DNA of 64,000 nt, from the NCBI GenBank assembly GCA_041661005.1, contig JBAZVG010000001.1, positions 196,917 to 260,916 on the forward strand, in the 5' to 3' direction. The first letter of the stretch is position 1; every line of letters starts with the position of its first letter. Both the position numbers and the translations under genes were made by a program. The DNA is from Minisyncoccota bacterium (lineage in GTDB: Bacteria; Patescibacteriota; Minisyncoccia; Phycocordibacterales; UBA9973). The notes beneath the pieces are model-generated. The model saw only the letters and a program-made list of their open reading frames with translations. It was not told the DNA's origin and made no database searches. Of this stretch, positions 4,455-57,041 are shown one piece after another.

Positions 4455-4802
4455 CTATTTCAATTTATGTTTCAAGCAAGTAATTATAGACCAATCGAAT
4501 TTTCCTTTCTCTGCCAGGTATTTCATTTTGTCTAACGCCCAAATAGAGTCGTCTAAAACCTCATTGCATGCTTGATATAATTTTTTTGCTTCACTGGCGA
4601 GCTTTCTATATTCATATCTACCTTTATAAAATCCTTTAGGCATTTTTTCCCAGCCGTTCATTTTGTAATAACAATTTACTATCTCATGCACCGGGTTGAC
4701 AGCTTGTTTATGTTTCTGCAAATTCGCCAAATATCCACTGAATGGATTTTTTAATTCATCTTCAGAGCCGTTTTTTTTATCATCTTTCTCCATGCTATCC
4801 AT
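4455..4802 (-). CDS. Hypothetical protein (115 aa)
   Basis: ORF only. Confidence 0.35.
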   Translation of the reverse strand: MDSMEKDDKKNGSEDELKNPFSGYLANLQKHKQAVNPVHEIVNCYYKMNGWEKMPKGFYKGRYEYRKLASEAKKLYQACNEVLDDSIWALDKMKYLAEKGKFDWSIITCLKHKLK

Positions 4803-4909: not shown

Positions 4910-5923
4910 ATGGGTATCTTCACAAAAAGGTTGGGCATAGATTTAGGGACGGCGAATACCCTAGTGTTTTTGCCTGGCAAGGGAATAATTTTAAACGAGC
5001 CTTCGGTGGTGGCTGTTTCTGAACAAGACAATAAAATTTTAGCCATTGGTTTTGAGGCTAAAGATATGATCGGCAAAACTCCAGAGTCTATCATTACTTA
5101 TTGTCCAATGAAAGACGGAGTGATTGCAGACTATCGTGTTACGGAGGCGATGCTTCGTTATTTCATAAACAAAGCGATGGGGCGGTTTAATTTTTTTAAA
5201 CCCGATGTGATGGTTTCAGTTCCGGCGGGCGTTACTTCCACAGAAAGACGAGCTGTCATAGAGGCTACCATACGCGCAGGCGCTAAAAATGCTTACGTAG
5301 TGAAGGAGCCCATCTTGGCGGCCATCGGCGCCGGAATTCCAATCTATGAATCGAAGGGTCATATGGTGGTGGACATCGGTGGAGGCACGACGGACGTGGC
5401 TGTTATCTCACTCGGAGGAATCGTGGCTTCTACATCAGTTAAATGCGCTGGAAATAAAATAGACCAAGCCATAGCTGATTACATAAAGAAAACTTTCAAT
5501 TTGGCGATAGGTGATAGAACAGCCGAAGAAGTTAAAATAAAAATAGGTGCCGCAGTAATGCTCGAAGAAGAATTGAGTGTAACGATAAAAGGGCGAGATT
5601 TTATCCAAGGTTTGCCTAGATCTGCTCGCGTCGGAACGAATGAAATAGTAAAAGCCATAGATGGAGAATTAAGGCAAATTATAAAAGCGATTAAAGCTGT
5701 TTTGCAAGAAACTCCGCCGGAACTTGCTTCGGACATTATAGATCAAGGTATCATTATGACTGGTGGTTCGTCTCAATTGCGAAATTTTACAGACTTGGTT
5801 TTTCGCAAGACAGGCGTCAAGGCGGCGCTCGCCGAAGATCCTCTTTTTTGCGTGGTGAAGGGCACAGGCATAGCGCTCGAGCATTTGGATGTATATAAAA
5901 AAACAGTTTTAAGTAAAAAGTGA
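4910..5923 (+). CDS. mreB: Rod shape-determining protein MreB (actin-like ATPase)
   Basis: GIDLGTANTLVF phosphate-1 motif, DIGGGTTD, and 337 aa length. Confidence 0.9.
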   Translation: MGIFTKRLGIDLGTANTLVFLPGKGIILNEPSVVAVSEQDNKILAIGFEAKDMIGKTPESIITYCPMKDGVIADYRVTEAMLRYFINKAMGRFNFFKPDVMVSVPAGVTSTERRAVIEATIRAGAKNAYVVKEPILAAIGAGIPIYESKGHMVVDIGGGTTDVAVISLGGIVASTSVKCAGNKIDQAIADYIKKTFNLAIGDRTAEEVKIKIGAAVMLEEELSVTIKGRDFIQGLPRSARVGTNEIVKAIDGELRQIIKAIKAVLQETPPELASDIIDQGIIMTGGSSQLRNFTDLVFRKTGVKAALAEDPLFCVVKGTGIALEHLDVYKKTVLSKK

Positions 5924-6058
5924 GTTCTTCAAAAACAAAATAGCTACTTTTAAAAACCCGCATAAAATTCTGCTGAATTTTTGCTAAGACTTCGGCCCGT
6001 CGGCCTCCGTACGATTTTTAAAAGCACTATTTTATTTTTGAAGAATTGTTTAAACTAT

Positions 6059-6856: not shown

Positions 6857-8581
6857 ATGGACAATATTAGTAAAAATAGAATATGTCAAAATTGTCGAGG
6901 TGAATTTGTAATCGAATCGGAGGATTTTAATTTCTACGAAAAGATGAAAGTTCCTGCGCCGACTTTTTGTCCGGAGTGTCGACTCATCAGGAGGCTTGTG
7001 TTGAGAAATGAGCGTATTTTATACAAACGTGAGTGTAATTTATGTAAAAAAAATATTATTTCGATTTATCATCAATCTGTACCTTTTCCAGTGTATTGTC
7101 TTCAATGCTGGTACGGCGATGGCTGGGATCCAGTTTCTTTCGGGCGGGACTATGACTTCTCTAGGCCCTTTTTTGAACAATGGAAAGGATTTTCCGATTC
7201 TGCTCCACGACTTGCTTTATGGCACAGAAATGCGATCAATTCCGATTACTCGAGCTTTGTAGGAGAGTCGAAGAATGTTTATTTATCAGTCTCGGTAGTT
7301 CTTGGATCAGAAAATGTATTTTATTCAAAATTTGTGGATAAATCAACGGATATTGTTGATTGTTTGAATATTAAAGACGGACAAATTCTTTATGAAGACA
7401 TAGAGGGCGAAAAAAATTACAATTGCCAGCACCTTTTCTTATCAAAGAATTGTATTGATTCTTTTTTTCTCGTTGACTGCACAAATTGCAGTAATTGTTT
7501 ACTTTCCCATAATTTGCGTAATAAAGAATTTTACATTCGTAATGTGAAATATTCAAAAGAAGAATATTTTAAAGAATTGGAAAAAATTAATTTAAAAAGC
7601 AGAGCGTCAAGAAAAATTTCATTGGAAGAATTTGAAAAAATCAAAATAAAATCTATTTATCGTTTTGCCAATATTGTAAAATCTGTGAACTCAACAGGGA
7701 ATAATCTTTTAAATGTTAAAAATTGTAAAAATTGTTTCGAAGTTTATGATGCTGAAAATTTAAAATATTGTTATCGGGTATTGAGATCTTTTAAAGATTC
7801 CATGGATACGAGTTATGGGATGAAATCTGAATTAATTTATGAATATATAACTGGCGCTAATACTGATTATAATGTGAAATTTTCTTCCTCTGGAATAAAT
7901 TATGTGCAAAATGCCGAATATACTGATTGTTGCATTAATTGTAATAATATTTTTGGTTGCATTTCTCTGAAGAATAAAGAAAACGCGGTTTTTAATAAAA
8001 TTTACACTAAAGAAGAATTTTTTAAACTTCGTGAAAAAATTATTGACCACATGAATGAAATGCCCTATGTTGACCAAAAGGGAAGAGTTTATAAATATGG
8101 AGAATTTTTCCCAATAGAATTGTCTCCGTTTGCCTACAATGAAACTTTGGCGCAGGAGATAGCTCCGATTACAGAGAAGCAAGCAAGCGCAGAAGGTTAT
8201 CCATGGCGCAAGTCGGACCAAAAGAATTTCAAAATTACAATTCCTGCGGAAGATATTCCAGACAACATCAATGAAGTAAGTGACAAAATTTTGAATGAAG
8301 TTTTGGGTTGCGCGCATGAAGGGAAATGTGAACATCAGTGTAATGAAGCTTTTCGCATAACCAATTATGAATTAAATTTTTATAAAAAACACAGTATACC
8401 ATTGCCGATTCTTTGTCAGAATTGCCGTTATTATGAAAGATCGAAAGTTATGCCATCACTCAAATTGTGGCACAGAAAGTGTATGAAAAAAGGTTGCGAA
8501 AATGAATTTGAAACCTCATATGCTCCAAATCGGCCGGAGATTATTTATTGTGAGCGTTGTTATCAGCAAGAAGTTTATTAA
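6857..8581 (+). CDS. Large cysteine-rich protein of unknown function (574 aa), paralog of 55332-57041
   Basis: ~40 Cys. N- and C-terminal modules read CxxC ... FY.KM.VP.PT.CP.CR, with internal C.NC.NCF.C..L.NK repeats. Clearly alignable end-to-end with the second copy. Confidence 0.8.
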   Translation: MDNISKNRICQNCRGEFVIESEDFNFYEKMKVPAPTFCPECRLIRRLVLRNERILYKRECNLCKKNIISIYHQSVPFPVYCLQCWYGDGWDPVSFGRDYDFSRPFFEQWKGFSDSAPRLALWHRNAINSDYSSFVGESKNVYLSVSVVLGSENVFYSKFVDKSTDIVDCLNIKDGQILYEDIEGEKNYNCQHLFLSKNCIDSFFLVDCTNCSNCLLSHNLRNKEFYIRNVKYSKEEYFKELEKINLKSRASRKISLEEFEKIKIKSIYRFANIVKSVNSTGNNLLNVKNCKNCFEVYDAENLKYCYRVLRSFKDSMDTSYGMKSELIYEYITGANTDYNVKFSSSGINYVQNAEYTDCCINCNNIFGCISLKNKENAVFNKIYTKEEFFKLREKIIDHMNEMPYVDQKGRVYKYGEFFPIELSPFAYNETLAQEIAPITEKQASAEGYPWRKSDQKNFKITIPAEDIPDNINEVSDKILNEVLGCAHEGKCEHQCNEAFRITNYELNFYKKHSIPLPILCQNCRYYERSKVMPSLKLWHRKCMKKGCENEFETSYAPNRPEIIYCERCYQQEVY

Positions 8582-10507: not shown

Positions 10508-11275
10508 ATGAAAAATCAAGGTAAAAAAATAAAATTAATTCACGAGATTCGAGCTGTTAAGAGCAGGAAGGAACTTGCATATATTGTAAAAGCGCAAAGA
10601 ATATCAGAAAAAGTATTAACAGATACTGTAAAAAAATTACGTACAGGCGTGACAGAACTTGAAATTGCGGATTTAATTAAAAAAGCATATATCAGCCATG
10701 GCGTAAATGTGTTATCTTTTCCGCCTATAGTCGCTTTTGGGAAAAATACCGCAAATATTCATCATGAACCCAACAAAACAAAATTAAAAAAAGGGAATAC
10801 TGTGATGTTTGATTTTGGATGCACAGTAAATCATTATTGTTCTGATATGACGCGGACATATTTCTGGGGTGAACCGAGTGCAAAGCAAAAGAAAATTTAT
10901 TTAATTGTTTTAGAAGCTCAAGAAATAGCTATTAGCAAAATAGAAAAGGGAGAGCGGCAGGCAAAGGTTATAGATAACGTAGCGCGAAAATTTCTTAATA
11001 AAAAATACAGAAATAAATCCGCCTCGGATCGACCGAGTCGAGACGGGTTTCCACATGGTCTTGGTCATGGAGTAGGTACTGTCATTCACGAATGGCCGAA
11101 TTTTAAACCAAAGAGTGAAGATATCCTTCCGACAGGATGCGTGATGACTATTGAGCCCGGACTATATTTCAAAGGTTTTGGCGGAATACGGATCGAAGAT
11201 ATGATTCTGATTACCAAAAATGGCTGCAAGAACCTAACCAATTTTCCTAAAGATTTAAAAAACGCAATTATATAA
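10508..11275 (+). CDS. M24-family metallopeptidase (Xaa-Pro dipeptidase / aminopeptidase catalytic domain only)
   Basis: Pita-bread fold motifs: FDFGC..N.Y.SD.TRT, HGLGHGVG.VIHE, EPG.Y and GIRIED. Confidence 0.75.
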   Translation: MKNQGKKIKLIHEIRAVKSRKELAYIVKAQRISEKVLTDTVKKLRTGVTELEIADLIKKAYISHGVNVLSFPPIVAFGKNTANIHHEPNKTKLKKGNTVMFDFGCTVNHYCSDMTRTYFWGEPSAKQKKIYLIVLEAQEIAISKIEKGERQAKVIDNVARKFLNKKYRNKSASDRPSRDGFPHGLGHGVGTVIHEWPNFKPKSEDILPTGCVMTIEPGLYFKGFGGIRIEDMILITKNGCKNLTNFPKDLKNAII

Positions 11276-11293
11276 AATAATCAAACTTTTTCC

Positions 11294-11366
11294 GGTACGA
11301 ATTTTTTTAAGCTTAAAAAATCCTGAAATTCTCTGCTCGTCAGCCTCGAAACCCCTCCAAAAGTTT
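11294..11366 (+). repeat. 72-bp intergenic repeat, copy 1 (GGTACGRATTTTTTTAAGCTTAAAAAATCCTGAAGTTYTCGGCTCGTCAGCCTCGAAACCCC..AAAAGTT)
   Basis: Three near-identical copies in this window (11294, 14908, 26738), all outside CDSs. Contains a perfect palindrome GATTTTTTTAAGCTTAAAAAAATC. Confidence 0.65.
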
Positions 11367-11416
11367 ATTATTTTATATATTTTGAAAAAAACAATTATCA
11401 AGGTATACTGTTTCCT

Positions 11417-12391: not shown

Positions 12392-13600
12392 TTGAAAAAT
12401 AATTTACCTCTTTCCTATATTGAAATTTCTAAAAAGAATTTGATTCACAATATCAAACAATTTAGGAATTTAATAAAAGCGGGAACTAAGATTTCTGTAG
12501 CCATAAAAGGCAATGCTTATGGCCATGGACAAAATATCGTAGCAAAAATTCTTGAGCCACACGTAGATTATTTTCAAGTAAATAACGTGGAAGAGCTTGA
12601 ATCATTGCGTAAAATAAGTCAGAAAAAAGCTTTTGTTTTAGGGTATGTGCAAAATTCGGATTTACCACGTGCTATACGATCAAATTGTATTTTGACTGTC
12701 TTCTCTCTCGGTCAATTAAAAGAAATAAACAAGATATCAAAGAAGCTTAAAAAAATACAAGAAGTTTGTGTCCCAGTTGATGCATATTTAGGGCGTGAAG
12801 GATTTTTATTTAGTGACTTGGGCGAGATTTTCGAAGAAATAAAAAAATCTGGATACGTAAAATTTACAAGTATCTATGCGCATTTTGCAAATATTGAAGA
12901 TGTGTCAAATTTTACTCATGCGCAAAAACAGATTAAGGAATATGAAAAAGCTTTAGAATTGGCGAAAATGTTCGGTTTTGAAAACCCGCCTAGACCCGTT
13001 TCGACGCAAGGCGAGCTCGGCGAGGCTGGCCCGCCTAGACTCGGCGAGGCTGGTTTGCAAACACATATATCTGCCACTTCTGGAATTTTGGTTTATGAAA
13101 AAGATAGTGGAATTAATTCAATCGTGCGATTGGGTATCGGCGCATACGGCATGTGGCCATCAGAACATTTAAAAAAAGTTTATGAAAATGAAAAATTCAA
13201 TCTGAAACCAGTGTTGTCATGGAAAACAAAGATCGCGCAAGTAAAAATCTTAGAAAAAGGGAATACCGTTGGTTATGGATTGACCTATAAAACAAATCAG
13301 AAAACAAAAATAGCAATTATCCCTCAAGGATATGCCGATGGTCTAGATCGTGGTCTTTCAAACAAGGGAGAGGTTTTGATCGGGGGCGCTCGATGTAAAA
13401 TCATAGGCAGGGTATCGATGAATATGTTTGCGGTTAATGTAAATCATTTGTCAGTTGTTAAAGTCGGCGACGAAGTTGTGATTATCGGAATTCAAAATAA
13501 AGAGAAAATTACGGCAGAGCAGGTGGCGAAAAAATTAGATACGATAAATTATGAAATTACCACGCGGATAAGTTCTTTATTGCCGAGAGTTATTACGTAG
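12392..13600 (+). CDS. alr: Alanine racemase
   Basis: PLP-lysine motif AIKGNAYGHG and the C-terminal beta domain. Carries in-frame 45-nt and 24-nt repeat copies (12985-13053). Confidence 0.85.
   Translation: MKNNLPLSYIEISKKNLIHNIKQFRNLIKAGTKISVAIKGNAYGHGQNIVAKILEPHVDYFQVNNVEELESLRKISQKKAFVLGYVQNSDLPRAIRSNCILTVFSLGQLKEINKISKKLKKIQEVCVPVDAYLGREGFLFSDLGEIFEEIKKSGYVKFTSIYAHFANIEDVSNFTHAQKQIKEYEKALELAKMFGFENPPRPVSTQGELGEAGPPRLGEAGLQTHISATSGILVYEKDSGINSIVRLGIGAYGMWPSEHLKKVYENEKFNLKPVLSWKTKIAQVKILEKGNTVGYGLTYKTNQKTKIAIIPQGYADGLDRGLSNKGEVLIGGARCKIIGRVSMNMFAVNVNHLSVVKVGDEVVIIGIQNKEKITAEQVAKKLDTINYEITTRISSLLPRVIT
12985..13053 (+). repeat. In-frame 45-nt palindromic element (12985-13029) plus adjacent 24-nt deletion derivative (13030-13053) inside alr
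   Basis: CCCGCCTAGACCCGTTTCGACGCAAGGCGAGCTCGGCGAGGCTGG followed by CCCGCCTAGACTCGGCGAGGCTGG. Translated as PRPVSTQGELGEAG then PPRLGEAG. Other copies lie at 14046, 29298 and 54860. Confidence 0.75.
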
Positions 13601-14883: not shown

Positions 14884-14907
14884 AGATTGAAAAACGAACT
14901 TTTTTTT

Positions 14908-14979
14908 GGTACGGATTTTTTGAAGCTTGAAAAATCCTGAAGTTCTCGGCTCGTCAGCCTCGAAACCCCGCAAAAAGTT
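14908..14979 (+). repeat. 72-bp intergenic repeat, copy 2 (in the miaA 5' leader / murA 3' flank)
   Basis: GGTACGGATTTTTTGAAGCTTGAAAAATCCTGAAGTTCTCGGCTCGTCAGCCTCGAAACCCCGCAAAAAGTTG. Confidence 0.65.
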
Positions 14980-15002
14980 GTTTTTTATTATTCGCCTCTG
15001 CA

Positions 15003-17998: not shown

Positions 17999-18922
17999 AT
18001 GAGCAAGACAATAAAGACTTTTTTGAAATATGGATTTGTGGCAATTGTCGCTATTTTTATAGCCTTTTTGTCGTCAGTCGCTTTTGCTATAGATGAGGTA
18101 AATGTTAATCCAGCAAGTGATTCGGAAAATGGTAATGAAAACGCAAATCCAGGAAGTGGTTCAGAAAGAGGTAGTGAGGTAAATGTTAATCCAGGAAATG
18201 GTTCAGAAAACGGTAATGAAGGTGGAAATGTGGATACAATCCCTGGCGATGTAACTCCTCCAGATGGTGGACCTACCGGAGATAGCTCTGGCAGTAGAAG
18301 TACTGGTAGTAGCAGAACAAGCACCCAGAATATTTCTGACATTAAAGTTACGCTTGTTGGTTCTTCTGTCTCTATAACTAATCTCGTTCGCGGAGGTACT
18401 TACACTATTTCTTGGGACGCATCAGTTCAAAACGCAGACACTTCTATTAGTTTAGTTTCTTCTTATGGTTCAAATATTTTAATCGGCACAAGCAAGAATG
18501 CAAACGGTGCTAATACTTTAAATTGGACTGTTCCCACATATCTAGCTCTCGGTACTTACACTTTACGCTTTACGGATTCTAGTAATCGAATGACCGACGC
18601 TTCGAACGTGTATAGGATAGTATCTCGAAGATCTTCTAACGCAGGCGCAGAAGCTCTAGGAACTGGTGGCGGAAATTTAATTGACACAGATGGAGAATCC
18701 TCAACTGTTTCGCCTGATGAAACAGAAGTTTTACCATCGGAAGATTCGCAAATTTCGGACGAGACTTCTCCCGTAGATCAGACAGCCGCAGTTGGAAATG
18801 CTTTTACAGATTTCTTGAGTAATAAGTATATTTTGTGGTTCTTTGTTCTTCTACTTATCATTGTTGGCGCTCTTTTTTTTCAAGAACGCAAAGATAGCGA
18901 TAAATTCCCTTTTAACAAGTAA
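17999..18922 (+). CDS. Cell-surface repeat protein (signal peptide, EVNVNP.(S/N).SENGNE repeats, Ser/Thr/Gly-rich, C-terminal TM anchor)
   Basis: N-terminal TM/signal, three imperfect ~20-aa repeats, C-terminal hydrophobic ILWFFVLLLIIVGALFF. Confidence 0.6.
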   Translation: MSKTIKTFLKYGFVAIVAIFIAFLSSVAFAIDEVNVNPASDSENGNENANPGSGSERGSEVNVNPGNGSENGNEGGNVDTIPGDVTPPDGGPTGDSSGSRSTGSSRTSTQNISDIKVTLVGSSVSITNLVRGGTYTISWDASVQNADTSISLVSSYGSNILIGTSKNANGANTLNWTVPTYLALGTYTLRFTDSSNRMTDASNVYRIVSRRSSNAGAEALGTGGGNLIDTDGESSTVSPDETEVLPSEDSQISDETSPVDQTAAVGNAFTDFLSNKYILWFFVLLLIIVGALFFQERKDSDKFPFNK

Positions 18923-23519: not shown

Positions 23520-24383
23520 TTAATTTAATTTTATCTCACTCATTTCTTCTTTAATAAGTCCTTTGATTTCCATAACCGTCAGTAAAGCGTTAGCGTTTGG
23601 AATTGGCATTTTCATAGTGCGAATTAAATAATCTCTTTGCATAGGCTCTCTTAATAATTTAACAACGGTTTTCTCTTCTGGCGATAAATCTTCAAAAAGT
23701 CTTTTTTGTTTTTCTTCATCTTTGGCTAATTTAAAACCAAGTGCTTCCAACACGTCTTCAGAGCAAGTGATGGGGGTCGCGCCTTGATGAAGTAGTCTGT
23801 TTGTTCCTTTTGAATTGGAAGAGAAAATTGATCCAGGCACTACCAGTAAATCTCTATTGTATTCTGTCGTGAGTCGCGCAGTGATAAGGGTGCCAGATCG
23901 CTCTTCGGCTTCTATTATTAACACAGCTTTTGAAATGCCTGCCATAAGTCTGTTGCGCATTGGAAAACTCCATTGAGTTGCTTTGAAGTCAGGTTCGAAT
24001 TCTGAAATTAAACATCCACCATTTTCAACTATTTCATTTATCAATCGCACGTTCGTTTTCGGATACATTGCTTCGTCGGAGAGTCCAGAACCCGGGAAGA
24101 CGATAGTCGTGAGTCCCGTTTGCATTGCTTTTTTGTGTGCGATTGTGTCTATGCCTATGGCAAAACCGGAGACTATCACTATGGGATAGCCTTTTAGACC
24201 CGCAATTATTTTCTCACAAGCTTCGCGTCCATAGGTAGTAAACTTGCGCGAGCCTACCACGCATAAGTAAATTAAATTTTCGTCAGTAGGTAAGTCGCCT
24301 ATGATCCAAAGGTCTTCTGGGGGTTGGGGAATTTCTAGAAGTGCTTTTGGGAATTTATTTTTTGGTAGTTTTCTGATTTGCAT
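23520..24383 (-). CDS. dprA: DNA processing protein DprA (Smf)
   Basis: Rossmann-like DprA core GSRKFTTYG ... VVSGFAIGID..AHKKAM ... ERSGTLITA. Confidence 0.85.
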   Translation of the reverse strand: MQIRKLPKNKFPKALLEIPQPPEDLWIIGDLPTDENLIYLCVVGSRKFTTYGREACEKIIAGLKGYPIVIVSGFAIGIDTIAHKKAMQTGLTTIVFPGSGLSDEAMYPKTNVRLINEIVENGGCLISEFEPDFKATQWSFPMRNRLMAGISKAVLIIEAEERSGTLITARLTTEYNRDLLVVPGSIFSSNSKGTNRLLHQGATPITCSEDVLEALGFKLAKDEEKQKRLFEDLSPEEKTVVKLLREPMQRDYLIRTMKMPIPNANALLTVMEIKGLIKEEMSEIKLN

Positions 24384-24523
24384 GTTACGCGAGAAATATC
24401 TTTTAAAAACCGCACATAATTTTCTGCTGAAAATTTGTTATGCTCGGCGCGCCCGCCTGCGCAATGCTTTTTAAAAGTTATTTCTCGCTTCACATTATAG
24501 CAAGTTTGATATACAATATGAAT

Positions 24524-25816: not shown

Positions 25817-26710
25817 ATGCAAAAGAAAAATATTTTAAATTCTCCACGGCTTTTGGAGTTAAAAAAACACAGGCGTAAGATTTTTTTAGGGAAAATCGCA
25901 TTTTATGTATTTGTATTTTTGGCAATTTCTTTCGGGTTGACTTACGCATCTCGCATTTCTGTTTTAAATATTGGTTCAATAGAAGTATCGGGCAATAAAG
26001 TTGTAGATACCGAAACTATTAAAATGGTCGTTAAGAAAGAAATTAACGGATATTACCTTTGGTTTTTTCCCAAAACGAACGTTTTGTTTTATCCAAAAGA
26101 CAAAATTAAAAATGCACTCAGAGAGAATTTTGCAAGGCTCCAAAACGTAAATTTATCAATTAAAGAAGATAAAATTTTAAAAATAGATTTGACTGAACGC
26201 ATAGTGAAATACACATGGTGCGGAAATACGGTTGACTCGACGGTCGGATTGGGAGAGGGCGACACAACGAGCCAAAAGGAAAAATGTTATTTTATGGATG
26301 CAGAAGGTTATATTTTTGACGAAGCGCCGTATTTTTCCGGTGAAGTTTATTTTAAATTTTACGGAACCACTGATTCAAACTCTGATGAACCATCGGGATC
26401 TTATTTCTTGAAAGAGAATTTTGGAAAATTAGTTTCATTTAAAAAAACACTGGAAAACATCGGGCTCGTGCCTGCGAAACTATACAAAAAAGACAACGGG
26501 GATATCGAATTTTTCCTTTCTAGGAAGAACTCAGTATCTATCGGCCCTAAAATAATTTTTAAAATTGATTCTGATTTCCAGAAGATAGCTGAAAATTTAG
26601 AAGTGGCTCTTGACACGGAACCTCTTTTGTCGGATTTTAAGAATAAATACTCTTCTCTGTTATATATTGATTTAAGGTTTGGAAATAAGGTATACTATAA
26701 GTTTAAGTAA
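25817..26710 (+). CDS. Cell division protein FtsQ/DivIB-like (single N-terminal TM plus POTRA)
   Basis: Basic N-terminus, one TM, then ISVLNIGSIEVSGNKVVDTETIK (POTRA-like). Confidence 0.5.
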   Translation: MQKKNILNSPRLLELKKHRRKIFLGKIAFYVFVFLAISFGLTYASRISVLNIGSIEVSGNKVVDTETIKMVVKKEINGYYLWFFPKTNVLFYPKDKIKNALRENFARLQNVNLSIKEDKILKIDLTERIVKYTWCGNTVDSTVGLGEGDTTSQKEKCYFMDAEGYIFDEAPYFSGEVYFKFYGTTDSNSDEPSGSYFLKENFGKLVSFKKTLENIGLVPAKLYKKDNGDIEFFLSRKNSVSIGPKIIFKIDSDFQKIAENLEVALDTEPLLSDFKNKYSSLLYIDLRFGNKVYYKFK

Positions 26711-26737
26711 ACTCTTTATCGGTATATCTTTTTCTAG

Positions 26738-26810
26738 GGTACGGATTTTTTTAAGCTTAAAAAATCCTGAAGTTTTCGGCTCGTCAGCCTCAAAACCCCC
26801 TAAAAAAGTT
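26738..26810 (+). repeat. 72-bp intergenic repeat, copy 3
   Basis: GGTACGGATTTTTTTAAGCTTAAAAAATCCTGAAGTTTTCGGCTCGTCAGCCTCAAAACCCCCTAAAAAAGTT. Confidence 0.65.
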
Positions 26811-26837
26811 ATCCCTCAATGAGTTTACTTTATTTTT

Positions 26838-52365: not shown

Positions 52366-55335
52366 ATGATTTCACGGATATATGTGATACCTAAAAACGA
52401 AGCAACCAAGGCAGATTCTTATTTGATTGACTCTAAATTATCTAAAAAAGAACTTGTAAAACTAGCTCAGACACTTACTAATCCTATTTTGGAGGATTAT
52501 TTTATAGACGAATCTCCAAGAGTTGGAAACTTTTCCCATGCAATCGAAATAGGATTTTTACCGGGGGTCACAGATAATGTCGGCCATACAGTCAAAGAAA
52601 TTGCGACAGATATGCTTCATCTAAAAAAGAATTTCAGTTTGGCGGTTTATACCTCCAAGATTTTTTTTATTAATTCACACGGCCTTGAAGACGCCCAGAA
52701 ACACTCTCTTACTTTATACAATCCGCTTATTGAAAGAGCCCTTTTTGTAGAGATAAAATCCGGAAAAATAGATTTGCCAAATAAAATACCTGAAGTTGTT
52801 TTAAGAAAAGGTGTGTCAATTTTACCTGTTTCACTTTCAGTGTCAGATGAAGAACTTATAAAAATAGGGAAAGAAGGAATACTGGACGAGACAAATTTAC
52901 GCAGGGGACCTTTAGCGCTTGATCTATCTTCAATGCAAGCTATTCAAAAATATTTTTCTTCGCTAAAAAGAAACCCGACTGATATAGAGCTCGAATCTCT
53001 AGCTCAAACTTGGTCAGAACATTGCAAGCACACTATTTTTGCAAATGAAATAGATGATATTAAAGATGGCTTGTATAAAACTTACATAAAAGGGGCGACA
53101 AATTTAATAAGAAAACAAAAGACAGAGAGAGGTCAGCAGGATTTTTGTGTTTCTGTTTTTAGTGATAATGCTGGCGGAATAATTTTTGATGAAGATTATT
53201 TAATAACACACAAAGTCGAAACCCATAACAGCCCTTCGGCTCTCGATCCATTTGGTGGAGCAATCACAGGCATAGTAGGGGTGAATCGCGACACAATCGG
53301 CTTTGGATTGGGCGCCAAACCGATAGCCAATACTTATGGATTTTGTTTTGGTAATCCGGAAGATACAAGACCGCTTTTTCGAGATAAAGAGCAGAAACAA
53401 AGAATGCTTTTACCGAAACGCATCATGGAAGGGGTGGTAAAGGGAATAAACGTCGGAGGAAACTGCTCCGGGATTCCGACTCTTTCTGGATTTATCAAAT
53501 TTGACGATAGATATAGGGGGAAACCTTTGGTTTTTGCCGGAACTGTTGGATTAATTCCAAGAAACTTATCTATCCATGGAGGGAAAAAACAACTATCGCA
53601 TGAAAAACAGGCACGAGTAGGGGATTATATAGTTATGGTTGGTGGAAGGGTAGGACTCGATGGAATACATGGAGCCACTTTTTCTTCCGTAACTATGGAT
53701 TCGACTTCTCCTGCGACAGCAGTGCAGATAGGAGATCCGATAACTCAAAAGAAACTTAGCGATAGCATCGTCAAAGAAGCGCGCGATATGAATTTATATA
53801 CTAGCATCACAGATAACGGTGCTGGTGGGCTGTCATGTTCAGTATCCGAGATGGCAAAAGAATGCGGTGGAGCAAAAGTTTTCATAGAAAAAATACCACT
53901 TAAATATCCAGGTCTTCTTCCTTGGGAAATTTGGATTTCTGAATCGCAAGAACGAATGACTTTGTCTGTTCCAAAAAATAAATGGAAAATGTTCCAAAAG
54001 TTGATGGAAAGTCGGGGGGTAGAAGCGATTGTGATTGGAGAATTCACAAATTCTGGAAAAGTTATCGTGCAATATAAAGGAAAAAAAATTATGGATATAG
54101 ATATGGAGTTTTTGCACAACGGATTGCCGAAACATTATTTAAACACTACTCCAGTGATAATCAAAAATCTTGAGCCTGCATTACCTAAAGGTCTATCACG
54201 CACAAAGGTTCTAGAAAAATTGTTAGGTGAAAAAAATATCAGCGGATTTGCTTTCATTTCCGAGCAGTATGACCACGAGGTGCAAGCATCTTCCGTGTTA
54301 AAACCGTTGTCCGGGAGGGGACGTATTAATACCGACAGTCAAATTTTTCGTCCGGTTTTGAATTCAAACAAAGGAGTTGTGTTGTCATCCTCAAGCTATC
54401 CTTCATACGGAGACATAAGCTCTTATGACATGGCATCTTGCGCGCTCGATACTGCAATTCGAAACATAATTGCATCAGGTGGTACGCTTTCACACCTTGC
54501 GATACTAGATAATTTCTGCTGGTGCTCATCAAATGATCCGAAACGGCTATACCAGCTTGTAGAGGCTGTAAAGGCTTGTCATGACACAGCTATCGGCTAC
54601 GGGACGCCGTTTATCTCTGGTAAAGACAGTATGTTCAATGATTTTAAAGGATATGATGAAAAAGGTAATCCTGTTTCTATCTCCATCCCGCCAACCCTTT
54701 TGATTTCTGCGATTAGTGTAATGCCTGATTTATATAAAACAGTTTCACCAGAATTTAAAAATAGTGGGGATATAATTTATTTACTGGGAGAAACGCATGA
54801 TGAATTAGGCGCAAGCGAATATTATAAACTTTTGGTAAAACAAGAGGGGAATAATGCAACCCACCTAGACCCGCTTCGATGCGAGGCGAGCTCGGCGAGG
54901 CTGGTAGGCAATAGTGTGCCAAAAGTTAATTTAGAAAAAAATCTAAAAACTTATTTAGCGTTAGAGAAGGCTATTCAAAAAGAACTGTTAGCTTCTTCGC
55001 TTTCTGTAACTTCCGGAGGCTTTGGAATCGCCTTAACTAAAGCATCTATTGGTGGAATGCTCGGATGTGAAATAAACATCAAAAACATGCTGGGGGGCTC
55101 AAATTTGGCCGATGTGAAGCTTTTTTCTGAAAGCCAGGGTAGGATATTGGTTTCTGTATCTCCTAAAAACACAAAGCAGTTTGAAAGAATAATGCAGGAA
55201 ATTCCTTGTGCTAAACTTGGAAAAGTAACAAAAAATGATAAGTTTGTAATTTTAGATGGTAAAGATAAAATTGTCGAAACAAATATTAAAAAATTGCACG
55301 CCATTTATCATAAATTTTCGAATTCACAACAATGA
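52366..55335 (+). CDS. purL: Phosphoribosylformylglycinamidine synthase subunit PurL with a large-type N-terminal (PurS-like) domain; glutaminase encoded separately
   Basis: RNPTDIELESLAQTWSEHCKHTIF (compare NP.DIEL.M.AQ.NSEHCRHKIF), VETHNSPSALDPFGGA, AIR-synthase-like domains; 989 aa. Carries an in-frame 45-nt element at 54860-54904. Confidence 0.85.
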   Translation: MISRIYVIPKNEATKADSYLIDSKLSKKELVKLAQTLTNPILEDYFIDESPRVGNFSHAIEIGFLPGVTDNVGHTVKEIATDMLHLKKNFSLAVYTSKIFFINSHGLEDAQKHSLTLYNPLIERALFVEIKSGKIDLPNKIPEVVLRKGVSILPVSLSVSDEELIKIGKEGILDETNLRRGPLALDLSSMQAIQKYFSSLKRNPTDIELESLAQTWSEHCKHTIFANEIDDIKDGLYKTYIKGATNLIRKQKTERGQQDFCVSVFSDNAGGIIFDEDYLITHKVETHNSPSALDPFGGAITGIVGVNRDTIGFGLGAKPIANTYGFCFGNPEDTRPLFRDKEQKQRMLLPKRIMEGVVKGINVGGNCSGIPTLSGFIKFDDRYRGKPLVFAGTVGLIPRNLSIHGGKKQLSHEKQARVGDYIVMVGGRVGLDGIHGATFSSVTMDSTSPATAVQIGDPITQKKLSDSIVKEARDMNLYTSITDNGAGGLSCSVSEMAKECGGAKVFIEKIPLKYPGLLPWEIWISESQERMTLSVPKNKWKMFQKLMESRGVEAIVIGEFTNSGKVIVQYKGKKIMDIDMEFLHNGLPKHYLNTTPVIIKNLEPALPKGLSRTKVLEKLLGEKNISGFAFISEQYDHEVQASSVLKPLSGRGRINTDSQIFRPVLNSNKGVVLSSSSYPSYGDISSYDMASCALDTAIRNIIASGGTLSHLAILDNFCWCSSNDPKRLYQLVEAVKACHDTAIGYGTPFISGKDSMFNDFKGYDEKGNPVSISIPPTLLISAISVMPDLYKTVSPEFKNSGDIIYLLGETHDELGASEYYKLLVKQEGNNATHLDPLRCEASSARLVGNSVPKVNLEKNLKTYLALEKAIQKELLASSLSVTSGGFGIALTKASIGGMLGCEINIKNMLGGSNLADVKLFSESQGRILVSVSPKNTKQFERIMQEIPCAKLGKVTKNDKFVILDGKDKIVETNIKKLHAIYHKFSNSQQ
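54860..54904 (+). repeat. 45-nt palindromic element copy inside purL (translated THLDPLRCEASSARL)
   Basis: CCCACCTAGACCCGCTTCGATGCGAGGCGAGCTCGGCGAGGCTGG. Confidence 0.75.
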
Positions 55336-57041
55336 AAGCTGAAACAAAAATCTGTCAAAACTGTAAAAAGGATTTCGTCATCGAATCGGATGATTTTGGA
55401 TTTTATAAAAAGATGGGTGTACCGGTGCCGACTTTTTGCCCTGACTGTAGGTTTCAAAGAAGACTTTTATTTAGAAATAATCGAGTGTTTTATAAACGCG
55501 AGTGTGCTTTTTGTAAGAAAGTAGTTCTAAGTTTATATAATAAGGATCGTCCTTTTATAGTTTATTGTCATGATTGCTGGTTTTCAGATAAATGGGATGT
55601 AATGAGTTATGGACGTGATTATGATTTTTCAATTCCATTTTTTAGACAATTTCAATTACTCCAAAAAGCAGTACCCAGAGCAAACTTATACCAAACAAAT
55701 TTCGTTTCAAGTGAATATTGTAATTACGGACTAGATTTTAAAGAATGTTATCTTTTATTTGGAGGTCATAATAACGAGCGAGTTTATTTTGGCAATCAGG
55801 TTTTTGATTCCCGTGATTCCTTTGATATTGCATTCTCAGCAACAAATGAACTTAGCTATGAAATTTTCGAGGGTAAAAGTTTAAACAAAGTTGTTTATAG
55901 TTCTTATTCAAAAGATTGTATAGACAGCCATTATCTAATTTTTTGCAAAAATTGCATTAATTGTTTTGGTTGTATCGGGCTGGTAAATAAGCAATATTAT
56001 ATTTGGAATATCCCACATTCGAAAGCAAGTTATGAAAAGTTCATTAAAGAAAATCAAGGAAGCTATACAAGGCACCTTGAAAATTTAAGAAAACTTCAGG
56101 AATTGAAATTAGAATTACCACACAGATATGCGAGAGTATACCAATCTGTAAATTCTGACGGTGATGATATTAGAAGATGTAGAAATACCCACATGGCTTT
56201 CACGTCCAGTGATGCGGAAAACTCCAAACATCTTTTTTTTTGCGTAAGAGGCGCAAACGAGTGCTATGATAATTCTTTTCAGGGTACAGGTAGTGAACTC
56301 TTATATGAAATAGCCCACGGTTTCGGTGGTTCCAGAAGTATTGTCGGTGTCGGAAATTTTAGTAATCAAGATTCACAATATAATGAGGAATGCCACGATT
56401 GTTTAAATATTTTTGGATGCGAAGGATTGCGAAAGAAACAATATTGTATTTTGAATAAACAATATAGTAAGGAAGAGTATGAAAAAATATTACCTAAAAT
56501 AATTGTGCATATGAAAAGCACGAGAGAATATGGTGAATTTTTCCCTAGTAATTTATCTCCGTTTTCATACAACGAAACTATTGCGCAAGAATATTTTCCT
56601 TTAAACAAAGAAGACGCCCTAAAACAAGGTTTTCTATGGCAGGACAGTGAAGCCAGGAATTATAAAATTGATATAGAAAATCAGGATATACCGGATAACA
56701 TCCAAGATGTTACGGAAAATATAGTGAGTAAAGTGATTGCTTGCGGACACGAAGGTAAATGCAAACATCAATGTACTGAGGCATTTAAAATTGTCTCTGA
56801 AGAATTTAAATTCTATAAAAAAATGAATTTGCCCTTGCCTAGACTATGTCCGAATTGTAGACATTATCAGCGTATCAATTTAAGAAATCCATTGAAACTT
56901 TGGGAGAGAGTTTGCATGTGCGAAAAAGAAAATCATTTTCACGGGCAAGAAAAATGTGTAGTAGAATTCAAAACGAGCTATGCATCAGACAGACCAGAAA
57001 TAGTGTATTGTGAAAAATGTTATCAACAAGAAATTTATTAA
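55332..57041 (+). CDS. Large cysteine-rich protein, paralog of 6857-8581, embedded in the pur operon
   Basis: 569 aa; N- and C-terminal modules and internal Cys repeats are collinear with the first copy. ATGA overlap with the purL stop codon. Confidence 0.8.
   Translation: MKAETKICQNCKKDFVIESDDFGFYKKMGVPVPTFCPDCRFQRRLLFRNNRVFYKRECAFCKKVVLSLYNKDRPFIVYCHDCWFSDKWDVMSYGRDYDFSIPFFRQFQLLQKAVPRANLYQTNFVSSEYCNYGLDFKECYLLFGGHNNERVYFGNQVFDSRDSFDIAFSATNELSYEIFEGKSLNKVVYSSYSKDCIDSHYLIFCKNCINCFGCIGLVNKQYYIWNIPHSKASYEKFIKENQGSYTRHLENLRKLQELKLELPHRYARVYQSVNSDGDDIRRCRNTHMAFTSSDAENSKHLFFCVRGANECYDNSFQGTGSELLYEIAHGFGGSRSIVGVGNFSNQDSQYNEECHDCLNIFGCEGLRKKQYCILNKQYSKEEYEKILPKIIVHMKSTREYGEFFPSNLSPFSYNETIAQEYFPLNKEDALKQGFLWQDSEARNYKIDIENQDIPDNIQDVTENIVSKVIACGHEGKCKHQCTEAFKIVSEEFKFYKKMNLPLPRLCPNCRHYQRINLRNPLKLWERVCMCEKENHFHGQEKCVVEFKTSYASDRPEIVYCEKCYQQEIY

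What the first reader, a model, noticed from the sequence alone, without database searches (positions are those of the whole stretch)
11294..11366. 72-bp intergenic repeat family (3 copies: 11294, 14908, 26738) containing a 24-bp perfect palindrome around AAGCTT
GGTACGGATTTTTTTAAGCTTAAAAAATCCTGAAGTTTTCGGCTCGTCAGCCTCGAAACCCC..AAAAGTT occurs three times at 88-93% identity, always in the same genomic orientation and always just upstream of a gene start (ddl, miaA on the opposite strand, dus). The 5' half is a perfect hairpin (GGATTTTTTTAAGCTTAAAAAATCC). The 3' half has a second small hairpin (GGCTCGTCAGCC). It is either a REP-like intergenic mobile element or a shared regulatory or small-RNA module. 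Unlike the in-frame families, it avoids coding sequence.
Basis: seen in the sequence. Interest (0 to 1): 0.6.

Follow-up and report, generated by a model that had tools for sequence, protein, structure and literature searches.

The report
Palindromic mobile repeat in CPR bacteria
The 72-bp repeat is the conserved centre of a roughly 120-bp palindromic miniature mobile element scattered between genes of tiny uncultured Nomurabacteria; that centre stays almost unchanged across dozens of species, which suggests it is in use, probably as an RNA structure at the ends of messages.

Summary
The three copies are real: the cores are 57-58/62 identical and no match is expected by chance. The reported unit is too short, and the "24-bp perfect palindrome" is imperfect. 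Each copy is a 96-126-bp palindromic unit: two inverted arms (family median 27 nt) around an asymmetric 62-nt core. The core folds as a three-way junction: an AT-rich hairpin plus a bipartite hairpin capped by GGCY-CGUC-RGCC.

The family occurs in at least 48 species-level Nomurabacteria/Paceibacterota (CPR) assemblies. It has no Rfam match, no viral match, and I found no paper on it. It behaves like a MITE:
- Whole units are present or absent at orthologous sites.
- Younger copies, and other core families, share the termini GAATTACGAAAC...GTTTCGTAATTC.
- Units nest inside one another, and the core flips between its arms.
- No target duplication and no autonomous partner was found.

Unusually, the core stays about 96% identical while the arms decay to near background and flanking genes are 65-86% identical.

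Copies abut stop codons. They are 2.2-fold enriched between convergent genes. Between tandem genes they lie in the sense orientation 43:11.

Best reading: an ERIC/Correia-like MITE family whose core acts in cis in transcripts as a 3'-end or intercistronic RNA module. The function is inferred, not shown. Two more distant relatives lie in the window.

The parts
11266..11382 (+). Family-A element, copy 1 (whole unit: 5' arm 11266-11293, core 11294-11355, 3' arm 11356-11382). It lies between the map stop (11275) and the ddl start (11417).
   Evidence: Inverted arms found (I9). Covariance model R1 scores 94.7 bits at 11285-11364. Neighbours identified by Pfam.
11294..11355 (+). 62-nt core of copy 1. 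P2 hairpin is 11298-11325 (loop TAAGCTT here; family consensus GAAGCTT). P3 is 11329-11350, with its cap hairpin TGCT-CGTC-AGCC at 11334-11345. GGT (11294-11296) pairs with ACC (11351-11353).
   Evidence: RNAalifold consensus and pair counts. Differs from copies 2 and 3 at 5 of 62 positions each.
14890..14985 (+). Family-A element, copy 2 (short arms 14890-14907 and 14970-14985; core 14908-14969). It lies between the stop of the murA-like gene (15003, - strand) and the miaA GTG start (about 14883, - strand). Here the core is antisense to both neighbours.
   Evidence: R1 scores 97.0 bits. Orthologous copy in L073 with 60/62 core identity while flanks are 75-77% identical.
26705..26830 (+). Family-A element, copy 3 (arms about 33 and 31 nt; core 26738-26799). 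It lies between the stop of an unknown 297-aa ORF (26710) and the dus start (26838). It belongs to the subfamily with arms AAACTCTTTATCGGTATATCTTTTTCTAGGG / CCCCCTAAAAAAGTTATCCCTCAATGAGTTT.
   Evidence: R1 scores 98.6 bits. RNA fold z = -4.1.
5925..6045 (+). Distant relative (family B): 31-nt arms, AT hairpin AAAATTC-TGCT-GAATTTT, cap hairpin GGCC-CGTC-GGCC. It lies between mreB and holB.
   Evidence: Inverted repeat I3, sequence. R1 full-length match at 23.8 bits, E = 1.5e-5. Fold z = -6.4. Neighbours by Pfam.
24382..24495 (+). Distant relative (family B): 28-nt arms, AT hairpin AATTTTC-TGCT-GAAAATT, cap hairpin GGCG-CGCC-CGCC. It lies upstream of serS (start 24518).
   Evidence: Inverted repeat I4, sequence. 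R1 full-length match at 25.1 bits, E = 5.5e-6. Fold z = -5.9. Neighbour by Pfam.

Best explanation
What it is. The repeat is the conserved centre of a 96-130-bp non-coding palindromic element of the MITE type, closest in anatomy to Correia and ERIC elements. It is dispersed through genomes of Candidatus Nomurabacteria-like Patescibacteria (CPR). Each unit has two inverted arms (median 27 nt). The best-preserved copies end in GAATTACGAAAC.../...GTTTCGTAATTC. The arms enclose an asymmetric 62-nt core that folds as a three-way junction:
- P1 is formed by the arms plus GGU/ACC.
- P2 is an AT-rich hairpin.
- P3 is UUC/GAA, then a UC/UC internal loop, then the cap GGCY-CGUC-RGCC.

How it got there (shown). 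The unit entered intergenic spacers as a whole. Since then it has been inherited vertically, sometimes lost, and its core has been flipped by exchange between the arms.

Selection (shown). The core is held almost invariant in every copy, even where the arms have decayed. It is therefore under purifying selection and is not neutral debris.

How it works (inferred). In most copies the element is transcribed as the tail of the upstream gene. The 27-bp stem topped by the three-way junction then acts in cis as a 3'-end or intercistronic mark. The long duplex would be a substrate for RNase III-type cleavage or a block to 3' exonucleases. The core would be the landing site for an unidentified conserved factor. 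Through this the element would set the stability and boundaries of neighbouring messages, as reported for Correia and ERIC.
For: Family and structure:
- More than 113 pattern hits, nearly all in Nomurabacteria/Paceibacterota MAGs, covering 48 assemblies.
- The three-way junction has compensatory changes. On the unfitted alignment A1, 81.8% of cells are paired against 72.7% in shuffles, and the covariation score is 0.254 against 0.116, with 0 of 500 shuffles reaching either value.
- On the model-fitted alignment A3, 96.6% are paired against 89.9%, and 15 of 26 pairs change on both sides. Slid controls reach at most 66.7%.
- The P3 cap stem is replaced wholesale (GGCT/AGCC, GGCC/GGCC, GCGC/GCGC, ACGC/GCGT, GGAT/ATCC, GCCT/AGGC) while the loop stays CGYC.

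Mobile-unit behaviour:
- Filled and empty orthologous sites differ by the whole unit.
- Non-orthologous copies share arms.
- The same termini flank different cores.
- Units nest inside one another.
- The core is flipped between homologous arms in about 8 orthologous groups.

Selection on the core:
- In orthologous pairs the core is 96.1% identical, the outer arms 52% (baseline 41%) and the flanks mostly 65-86%.
- Core divergence is independent of arm integrity (Spearman -0.03).

Link to transcripts:
- The upstream stop codon usually lies 15-35 nt before the core, so the arm starts at the stop.
- Contexts are ++ 43, +- 30, -+ 14, -- 11. Sense against antisense gives p = 1.4e-5. Convergent spacers hold 30 copies against 13.8 expected.
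- Whole units fold far better than shuffles, with z from -3 to -9.8.

Precedent: RNase III cleavage of Correia hairpins, an RNase E effect of ERIC at gene 3' ends, and Correia inversion are described in the review PMC10969869.
Against: - No transcript data exist, so the RNA role is inferred only.
- The wobble test does not favour the + strand. Leaving out the ambiguous G6.U31 pair, G:T appositions number 27 and A:C number 44. In the arms the counts are 66 and 78. This pattern is what DNA-level arm homogenisation or - strand function would give.
- 11 tandem-context copies are antisense (including copy 2 of the window) and 14 lie between divergent genes, where no upstream message ends (example L055).
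- No U-tract follows the stem: 2.9 T in 8 nt, which is background level. In L066/L022 a canonical terminator precedes the element. It is therefore not an ordinary terminator.
- No target-site duplication was detected, and no autonomous element with the same termini was found in the sequence held.
- Almost all P2 helix positions are conserved in sequence as well as in pairing, which is more than a simple RNA stem requires.
- Copies were ascertained with a 20-nt exact match inside the core, which inflates apparent conservation of positions 43-62.
Confidence: 0.45

Rival explanations
1. A purely selfish element. The core, especially the GGCY-CGTC-RGCC hairpin shared by several core families, is the cis site that an unidentified transposase or recombinase recognises, perhaps on folded single-stranded DNA. 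Cores look conserved because only intact copies propagate and decayed copies are quickly deleted from these streamlined genomes. Any effect on neighbouring genes is incidental.
For: - Present/absent polymorphism, shared termini across core families, nesting and subfamilies.
- The same cap hairpin and CTTTT...AAAAG inner arms occur in families with otherwise different cores.
- There is no + strand wobble signature in the arms or the core.
- Few decayed copies are detectable by nhmmer or the covariance model.
- Enrichment in convergent spacers is typical of insertions that survive where they do least harm.
Against: - Orthologous copies whose arms have diverged to near background still have 96% identical cores, and core divergence does not track arm integrity. 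Under this model resident copies should decay at the same rate in arms and core.
- The same consensus holds across 48 species-level assemblies.
- No transposase partner and no target duplication was found.
- There are no copies on viral contigs.
- The 43:11 sense bias persists despite evolutionary flipping of the core, which needs strand-specific selection.
Confidence: 0.25
2. A DNA-level host site. The core would be a binding platform for a nucleoid-associated protein, topoisomerase or similar factor, as with BIME/RIP elements that bind IHF and gyrase, or the IHF site inside Correia. The phased A/T tracts and the palindromic P2 would then act as double-stranded DNA.
For: - The sequence, not just the pairing, of the AT-rich P2 helix is 97-100% conserved at most positions.
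- The location at gene ends and in convergent spacers is where BIMEs sit.
- The symmetric G:T and A:C mismatch counts fit DNA rather than one RNA strand.
- The precedent is known from the literature on BIME/RIP elements, and for Correia from PMC10969869.
Against: - Compensatory double changes in all three helices, wholesale replacement of the P3 cap stem, and length variation of P2 are what hairpin formation predicts. A duplex protein site does not predict them.
- GC-rich core families in a 38.5% GC genome suggest a need for stable folding.
- Orientation relative to transcription is biased.
Confidence: 0.1
3. An autonomous structured RNA: a new self-cleaving ribozyme, a riboswitch-like sensor or a small trans-acting RNA. 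It would be carried by, or mistaken for, a mobile element.
For: - A three-way junction with nearly invariant junction and loop nucleotides and variable helix lengths is the usual signature of ribozymes and aptamers.
- There are superficial resemblances to the hammerhead core: GGUA|C, CUGAAG, CGAAAC (read directly from the sequence).
- Small ribozymes are often multi-copy and associated with repeats (my own knowledge).
Against: - No Rfam family matches, including all hammerhead, twister, pistol and hatchet models, even at E up to 10.
- Hammerhead invariants fail: position 9 is U, G8 is A in 22% of copies, and the residue that would have to be C3 is base-paired in P2.
- The relatives B, C and D keep only the cap hairpin, not a common junction.
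- There is no conserved promoter.
- Neighbouring genes are unrelated, so a riboswitch is unlikely.
Confidence: 0.08
4. A shared promoter or operator module for the downstream gene. This is the reader's second reading, prompted by all three window copies lying just upstream of gene starts.
For: - In the window each copy is 25-61 nt from a start codon.
- 57 of 98 copies have a co-oriented gene starting downstream.
- Correia elements carry promoters (PMC10969869).
Against: - Where promoters can be recognised they lie outside the element: TTGAAA-16-TATACT after copy 1, and TTGACA-type promoters after L055 and L099 that are also present at the empty sites.
- No sigma-70-like hexamer pair with correct spacing is conserved inside the core or the inner arms (read directly from alignment A1).
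- 30 copies lie between convergent genes.
- The stronger positional rule is abutment to the upstream stop codon.
Confidence: 0.05
5. An ordinary bidirectional intrinsic terminator that happens to be repeated.
For: A long stem lies immediately after stop codons, and copies are enriched between convergent genes.
Against: - There is no T-run after the stem in either direction: 2.9 and 3.1 of 8 nt, which is background.
- The stems are AT-rich with a 62-nt branched insert.
- Canonical GC-rich hairpin plus T-run terminators exist elsewhere in these genomes, and one directly precedes the element in L066/L022.
- Copies sit inside what are tight operons at the empty sites.
Confidence: 0.05

Closest known systems
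Correia repeat-enclosed elements (CREE/NEMIS) of Neisseria
   Same: - About 100-150 bp, with roughly 26-bp inverted termini enclosing a core.
- Tens to hundreds of intergenic copies, shared across species of a lineage.
- Transcribed hairpins are cut by RNase III.
- The enclosed core can invert.
- No transposase is known (my own knowledge; the other Correia properties are from PMC10969869).
   Different: - There is no sequence similarity.
- The TA target duplication of Correia is not detectable here.
- Here the core is far better conserved than the termini.
- No promoter or IHF site could be recognised.
- The host lineage is CPR, not Neisseria.
ERIC / IRU elements of Enterobacteria
   Same: - An imperfect palindrome of about 127 bp in transcribed intergenic regions.
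- Conserved across genera (my own knowledge).
- Insertion at gene 3' ends changes mRNA level through an RNase site (PMC10969869).
- The effect depends on orientation (my own knowledge).
   Different: - The sequence is unrelated.
- The centre here is a branched three-way junction rather than one long imperfect hairpin.
- Several core families share one set of termini.
REP / BIME / REPIN elements with RAYT transposases
   Same: Dispersed extragenic palindromes that form hairpins, are enriched after genes and between convergent genes, and are proposed to be mobilised as folded single strands (PMC3116915 and PMC2817692, listed; context data).
   Different: - REP units are 20-40-nt GC-rich imperfect palindromes with a conserved 5' GTAG.
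- In REPINs the ends are the conserved part. Here the conserved part is the 62-nt centre and there is no GTAG.
- No RAYT gene was looked for genome-wide.
Integron attC sites
   Same: Imperfect palindromes of 57-141 nt directly after an ORF, co-oriented with it, sometimes with a branched central structure, and with structure conserved more than sequence in the arms (my own knowledge).
   Different: - The AAC/GTT triplets that define attC are present in only some copies.
- The neighbours are housekeeping genes, not cassette arrays.
- The centre is conserved in sequence.
- Orientation flips.
Hammerhead ribozyme (three-way-junction self-cleaving RNA)
   Same: A three-helix junction with conserved junction nucleotides, with local resemblances GGUA|C, CUGAAG and CGAAAC.
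   Different: - The invariant core is not met.
- The junction strands are 1, 3 and 0 nt rather than 1, 7 and 3.
- There is no hit to any Rfam hammerhead model at E up to 10.

Membership tests
MITE (miniature inverted-repeat transposable element) | Small (under about 300 bp) with no coding capacity | tested here: met
   Units are 96-150 bp. The + strand of the core has stops in all three frames. The variable core sites show no 3-base periodicity.
MITE (miniature inverted-repeat transposable element) | Terminal inverted repeats shared among copies | tested here: met
   Arms have a median of 27 nt. Within-copy complementarity scores 15.4 against 7.5 between copies. The best-preserved copies, and other core families, share GAATTACGAAAC.../...GTTTCGTAATTC. 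In most copies the arms have diverged.
MITE (miniature inverted-repeat transposable element) | Many dispersed copies with present/absent polymorphism at orthologous sites | tested here: met
   More than 113 hits in 48 assemblies. Filled against empty sites are shown. At the map-ddl site, 1 of 80 metagenome loci holding a map relative carries the element; 67 of those loci also show ddl downstream.
MITE (miniature inverted-repeat transposable element) | Target-site duplication flanking the unit | tested here: inconclusive
   The best 8-mer match between the two flanks averages 5.77 against 5.66 in mismatched controls. Individual filled/empty pairs hint at a duplicated TATGA-type junction (L021/L048), but the boundaries are fuzzy.
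MITE (miniature inverted-repeat transposable element) | A cognate autonomous IS with the same termini | tested here: inconclusive
   No pair of termini encloses an ORF in about 1 Mb of held sequence, and the termini are absent from viral contigs.
REP/BIME/REPIN | A 20-40-nt GC-rich imperfect palindrome with a conserved 5' GTAG, with the ends more conserved than the spacer | tested here: not met
   There is no GTAG. The conserved part is the 62-nt centre, and the arms are AT-rich and variable.
REP/BIME/REPIN | A RAYT (Y1 transposase) gene in the same genome | not tested
   Only the ten ORFs flanking the five elements in the window were scanned against Pfam.
Intrinsic (Rho-independent) terminator | A stable stem followed directly by a U-tract | tested here: not met
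   The 8 nt after the 3' arm hold 2.9 T, and the mirror side holds 3.1 A. Both are at background level.
Any Rfam 15 family (riboswitches, sRNAs, ribozymes) | A covariance-model match at or near the gathering score | tested here: not met
   At gathering thresholds the window yields only three tRNAs. E-value mode at up to 10 on copy 1, and at up to 1 on families C and D, gives only chance-level hits.
Hammerhead ribozyme | The invariant core C3 U4 G5 A6 N7 G8 A9 ... G12 A13 A14 ... U16.1 H17 around three stems | tested here: not met
   Position 9 would be U, G8 is A in 20 of 91 copies, and C3 would be base-paired. There is no CM hit.
Integron attC | Conserved R''/R' triplets AAC...GTT, cassette arrays, and an integrase nearby | tested here: not met
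   AAC/GTT are absent from many copies, for example L099, L021 and L011. The neighbours are map, ddl, miaA and dus.

The most novel reading that the evidence does not exclude
The 62-nt core, and more widely the GGCY-CGUC-RGCC-capped module shared by several core families, is a lineage-specific functional RNA signal that Nomurabacteria have domesticated from a MITE. It would be either the binding site of a conserved RNA-binding protein or RNase that punctuates their polycistronic messages, or a new small catalytic RNA. On this reading a mobile element distributes a working RNA part to dozens of genes in some of the smallest bacterial genomes.
Probability: 0.25. Interest if true: 0.75.

Novelty: new member of a known kind. 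Interest (0 to 1): 0.5.

Why it matters
CPR/Patescibacteria genomes are very small and are usually described as streamlined. Here about 0.9% of a 64-kb stretch consists of palindromic mobile repeats, and the family reaches at least 48 species-level assemblies.

The conservation pattern is the reverse of what a decaying transposon shows: the centre is frozen while the arms drift. That makes the core a concrete candidate for a new cis-acting RNA or DNA signal in organisms that cannot be cultured and whose gene-expression machinery is almost unknown.

In practice:
- The covariance model gives a marker for this lineage.
- The element is a source of assembly breaks and of mis-called ORFs. For example, the miaA ORF is extended through copy 2.
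- It provides a set of natural insertion, deletion and inversion events for studying genome dynamics in CPR bacteria.

If the function is only selfish, the finding is an ordinary new MITE family in a new lineage.

Tried and rejected
1. Known RNA family. Rfam at gathering thresholds on the whole window, and in E-value mode on copy 1 and on families C and D, gave nothing.
2. Hammerhead-like ribozyme. Rejected position by position and by the lack of a CM hit.
3. Ordinary terminator. There is no U-tract.
4. Orientation set by replication direction, suggested by 3 of 3 (5 of 5 with family B) + copies in the window. Neighbouring copies on the same contig are 15 same and 12 opposite.
5. Insertion of a short core into pre-existing hairpins, which would explain the variable arms. 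Empty sites have 10-40-nt gaps or ATGA overlaps and no hairpin, and non-orthologous copies share arms.
6. Target-site duplication. No signal above control.
7. Autonomous partner. Not found in held sequence or on viral contigs.
8. Phage origin. There are 0 viral hits for the core.
9. Strand assignment from wobble pairs. Inconclusive: the arms show 66 G:T and 78 A:C, and the 26 modelled pairs show 27 and 44 once G6.U31 is set aside.
10. Coding on the - strand. Two frames are open, which is why ORF listing extends miaA to 15003. The element occurs in both orientations and in unrelated contexts, and its variable sites show no codon periodicity.
11. Promoter inside the element. No conserved hexamer pair was found. 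Recognisable promoters lie outside it.
12. attC site. The defining triplets are not conserved.
13. A long-range pairing of UGAAG with CUUCA in the 3' inner arm. The 3' segment varies without covariation (read directly).
14. mis-parsed strands. It is superseded and should be ignored.
15. Literature. Five full-text searches found no description of this element. The 183,232-genome MITE survey (PMC11602168) does not mention Patescibacteria.
Full report
OBSERVATION

The three copies exist where stated. The cores are at 11294-11355, 14908-14969 and 26738-26799, all on the + strand. A 20-nt consensus from the 3' half matches exactly these three places and none of 100 shuffles.

Several details need correcting.
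- The AAGCTT-centred palindrome is not a perfect 24-mer. Copies 1 and 3 have seven T against six A, so only 18 bp are perfect. Copy 2 has G on both sides of AAGCTT, which breaks the DNA palindrome but gives U.G and G.U pairs in RNA.
- The unit is longer than 72 bp. Each core is flanked by inverted arms, giving whole units of 11266-11382, 14890-14985 and 26705-26830.
- Pfam confirms the neighbours. Copy 1 lies between map and ddl. Copy 2 lies between a murA-like gene and miaA, both on the - strand. Copy 3 lies between an unknown ORF and dus.

DISTRIBUTION

All but three chance hits (L043, L087, L089) are MAGs labelled Candidatus Nomurabacteria, Paceibacterota or Patescibacteria. Some carry a 'Saccharibacteria' label that is probably a binning label. 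Together they represent 48 assemblies, which is a lower bound.

Candidatus Nomurabacteria belongs to the Parcubacteria group of the Patescibacteria. The window is not one of these genomes. Its best DNA matches are 75-77% identical (L073). I infer that it comes from a related organism. There are no matches on viral contigs.

ANATOMY

In 91 canonical copies, 48 of the 62 core columns are at least 97% conserved. The consensus is GGTACGGATTTTTTGAAGCTTAAAAAATCCTGAAGTTCTCGGCTCGTCAGCCTCGAAACCCC.

RNAalifold on an ungapped alignment that was not fitted to any model gives a three-way junction:
- P1: the arms, a T-run/A-run, and then GGU pairing with ACC.
- J1/2: one unpaired A.
- P2: C5-G32, G6.U31 (A-U in 19 copies), a bulged C30, then eight pairs closing the loop GAAGCUU.
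- J2/3: AAR.
- P3: UUC/GAA, a UC/UC internal loop, and the cap GGCU-CGUC-AGCC.

Pair counts support the structure.
- On alignment A1, 81.8% of cells are paired against 72.7% in shuffles. The covariation score is 0.254 against 0.116. No shuffle of 500 reaches either value.
- On the model-fitted alignment of 117 copies, 96.6% are paired against 89.9%. Fifteen of 26 pairs change on both sides. Slid controls reach no more than 66.7%. That alignment leans towards the model.
- Variant copies are the most telling. The cap stem is replaced wholesale (GCGC/GCGC, ACGC/GCGT, GGCC/GGCC, GGAT/ATCC, GCCT/AGGC) while the CGYC loop stays. P2 is lengthened in a 71-73-nt variant. Some copies shift the UC/UC loop by two pairs.

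Whole units fold far better than shuffles, with z between -3 and -9.8, on both strands as expected for a palindrome.

THE ARMS

Arms have a median of 27 nt. Within a copy they are strongly complementary, with a local score of 15.4. On average, arms of different copies are no more alike than shuffled sequence (7.5 against 7.2).

The best-matching pairs of copies, however, include non-orthologous copies with clearly homologous arms, for example L046 and L075 in one MAG. The best-preserved copies end in GAATTACGAAAC.../...GTTTCGTAATTC.

The same termini enclose other, unrelated cores (L059:5313-5445, L022:1540-1672, L066:1605-1770, L024:2275-2428). The arms are therefore part of the element and behave as terminal inverted repeats that decay with age.

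MOBILITY

Comparison of flanks among loci gives many orthologous sites.
- Where one genome has the element and another does not, the whole unit (arms plus core, about 130-150 nt) is missing. The empty site is a 10-40-nt spacer or an ATGA stop/start overlap, with no hairpin.
- At the map-ddl junction, only 1 of the 80 metagenome loci that hold a map relative carries the element (L149). In 67 of these loci ddl is also seen downstream, and most of those have small gaps.
- In about eight orthologous groups the core is inverted between homologous arms. The clearest case is L029 against L103. Window copy 1 and L011 are also opposite. Inversion of the enclosed core is known for Correia elements (PMC10969869).
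- Elements nest. GC-rich palindromes sit inside P2 or the linker in L024, L037, L054, L074 and L090. A different element interrupts a family-A copy in L047.

I could not detect a target-site duplication or an autonomous partner.

SELECTION ON THE CORE

In 33 orthologous pairs the outer arms are 52% identical (ungapped) against a 41% baseline for unrelated copies. The flanking DNA of these pairs is mostly 65-86% identical. The core is 96.1% identical, the same as for all 4005 pairs (95.8%).

Core divergence from the consensus averages 1.44 differences and is unrelated to how well the arms match the terminal consensus (Spearman -0.03, p = 0.81).

Sensitive searches that do not depend on the exact 20-mer add few diverged copies: nhmmer finds 133 hits and the model finds 124, against 120 pattern matches. 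Decayed cores are therefore rare.

One caveat applies. Copies were found with an exact match to core positions 43-62, so conservation of that segment is inflated. Positions 1-42 are free of that bias and are equally conserved.

Concerted evolution within genomes cannot explain one consensus shared by 48 assemblies. I conclude that the core is under purifying selection in resident copies.

CONTEXT AND ORIENTATION

These figures use a crude ORF caller and read every element in core orientation. The 98 classifiable copies divide as follows (which supersedes the mis-parsed):
- 43 have both neighbours on the same strand as the core.
- 11 have both neighbours on the opposite strand.
- 30 lie between convergent genes.
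- 14 lie between divergent genes.

Sense against antisense gives p = 1.4e-5. Against the background of gene junctions in the same loci, convergent spacers are over-represented (30 against 13.8 expected), tandem spacers are under-represented (54 against 70), and divergent spacers are as expected (chi-square p = 1e-5).

The upstream stop codon typically lies 15-35 nt before the core, so the arm starts at, or overlaps, the stop. No copy lies inside a CDS. The three 'overlaps' arise because two frames of the - strand are open, which lets the first-start rule extend miaA-type ORFs through the element.

Orientation is not tied to the chromosome. Neighbouring copies on one contig are 15 same and 12 opposite.

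A SUPERFAMILY

A covariance model of the core plus inner arms (R1) finds two more full-length matches in the window, both on the + strand:
- 24400-24477, with E = 5.5e-6.
- 5947-6024, with E = 1.5e-5.

Each lies inside a 114-121-bp palindromic unit (24382-24495 upstream of serS; 5925-6045 between mreB and holB). Each has its own AT hairpin and a cap hairpin, GGCG-CGCC-CGCC or GGCC-CGTC-GGCC.

The loci contain further core types, including GC-rich ones (63-68% GC in a 38.5% GC genome). All have CTTTT...AAAAG inner arms, a variable P2 with compensatory changes, and the CTC-GGCY-CGTC-RGCC module. That hairpin is the common denominator of the class.

WHAT IT IS NOT

- It matches no Rfam 15 family at gathering or relaxed thresholds.
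- The hammerhead resemblance (GGUA|C, CUGAAG, CGAAAC) fails on the invariant positions.
- It is not a canonical terminator. The 8 nt after the stem hold 2.9 T and the mirror side 3.1 A, both at background. A normal GC-hairpin/T-run terminator precedes the element in L066 and L022.
- It is not an attC site. AAC/GTT are not conserved and the neighbours are housekeeping genes.
- I see no conserved promoter. Recognisable promoters lie just outside the unit and are also present at empty sites.

WHICH STRAND ACTS

This is unresolved.
- The sense bias favours the + strand as RNA.
- The wobble test does not. In the arms, G:T appositions number 66 and A:C number 78. In the 26 modelled pairs, once the ambiguous G6.U31 pair is set aside, the counts are 27 and 44.
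- Symmetric or slightly reversed counts are what template-switch or gene-conversion homogenisation of a DNA palindrome would give. The observed core flips show that the arms do interact.

MECHANISM

I commit to the following.

Shown: this is a MITE-type palindromic repeat family with a three-way-junction core under purifying selection. It is placed mostly at the 3' ends of genes in the sense orientation.

Inferred: the element is co-transcribed with the upstream gene. Its long stem and branched top then act as a 3'-end or intercistronic mark, either as an RNase III-type processing site or as protection from 3' exonucleases. The core would serve as the landing site for an unidentified conserved factor. 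This is analogous to what is documented for Correia (RNase III cleavage at the inverted repeats) and ERIC (an RNase E-dependent change of mRNA level at gene 3' ends) (PMC10969869).

I give the whole statement 0.45. The identity as a MITE-like family is much firmer (about 0.85) than the RNA role (about 0.35-0.4).

The main rival, at 0.25, is a purely selfish element whose core is the cis site for its mobilising enzyme. Lesser rivals are a DNA-level host-factor site (0.1), an autonomous RNA or ribozyme (0.08), a promoter module (0.05) and a plain terminator (0.05).

NOVELTY

Five full-text searches found no description of this element. A survey of MITEs in 183,232 genomes does not mention Patescibacteria.

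I file it as a new member of a known kind: bacterial palindromic MITEs of the Correia/ERIC type. Two features are unusual. The centre is frozen while the termini drift. One hairpin module is shared by several core families.

CAVEATS

- The genome scan was truncated.
- Loci are 8-kb blocks from MAGs.
- ORF calls are crude.
- E-values from R1 are rough.
- Orthology was inferred from flank similarity only.
- There are no expression data.

Noticed in passing
window 5925-6045 and 24382-24495: Two more palindromic units with the same architecture but a different core (family B). They lie between mreB and holB, and upstream of serS. The covariance model built from the finding's family recognises both (E = 1.5e-5 and 5.5e-6).
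   Followed up: partly
window 12982-13030, 14034-14082, 54857-54905: A 49-nt GC-rich repeat (88-90% identical) that lies inside coding sequence: in alr, at the 3' end of miaA (where it encodes ASLAELASHRSGSRRA), and in ORF 52366..55335. It looks like an in-frame coding insertion, of the kind seen with Rickettsia palindromic elements.
   Followed up: no
window 27631-27750: A 120-bp palindromic unit (37-nt arms, 86% complementary, GC-rich 46-nt centre) inside the dus reading frame. The Dus protein is 373 aa.
   Followed up: no
window 4820-4903; also the arm at window 27631-27667 and L056 around position 4901: A palindrome with 30-nt arms containing CCGGTAGTGA, between ORF 4455..4802 (- strand) and mreB. 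A closely similar motif (CGGTAGTGA) recurs in the arm of the dus-internal unit and in another genome, so this may be a further repeat family.
   Followed up: no
L059:5313-5445, L022:1540-1672, L066:1605-1770, L024:2275-2428; L069:185-263, L021:3957-4037 and 5020-5098, L096:1105-1184; L047:1038-1146 and L030: Other core families in related genomes share the termini GAATTACGAAAC.../...GTTTCGTAATTC and the CTC-GGCY-CGTC-RGCC hairpin. One group is GC-rich (63-68% GC). A further core, CTCAGGTCCTCGGATCTCYGGGTCCC, is nested inside a family-A copy.
   Followed up: partly
L114:833-941, L116:2250-2360, L122:2229-2338, L162:2241-2345 and about ten other metagenome loci: In relatives that lack the element, the map-ddl spacer is a conserved region of about 100 nt. 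It contains TTTTTGCAAAA, then a perfect DnaA box (GTTATCCACAG), then TTGACT-17-TATAAT, then a second TTTTTGCAAAA just before the ddl start.
   Followed up: no
window 13966-15003 (- strand): The mechanical ORF for miaA runs through copy 2, because two frames of the core's - strand are open. The likely true start is the GTG near 14883, eight codons before the P-loop. Automatic annotation of such genomes may carry false N-terminal extensions.
   Followed up: partly
window 18094-18229 and 40264-40331: Tandem coding repeats: units of about 39-42 nt in ORF 17999..18922, and an 18-nt period repeated three times at 40264-40331.
   Followed up: no
window 6873-7051 vs 55342-55520, and 8094-8157 vs 56527-56590: Two ORFs (6857..8581 and 55332..57041) share stretches that are 70-80% identical. 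They are probably paralogous genes.
   Followed up: no
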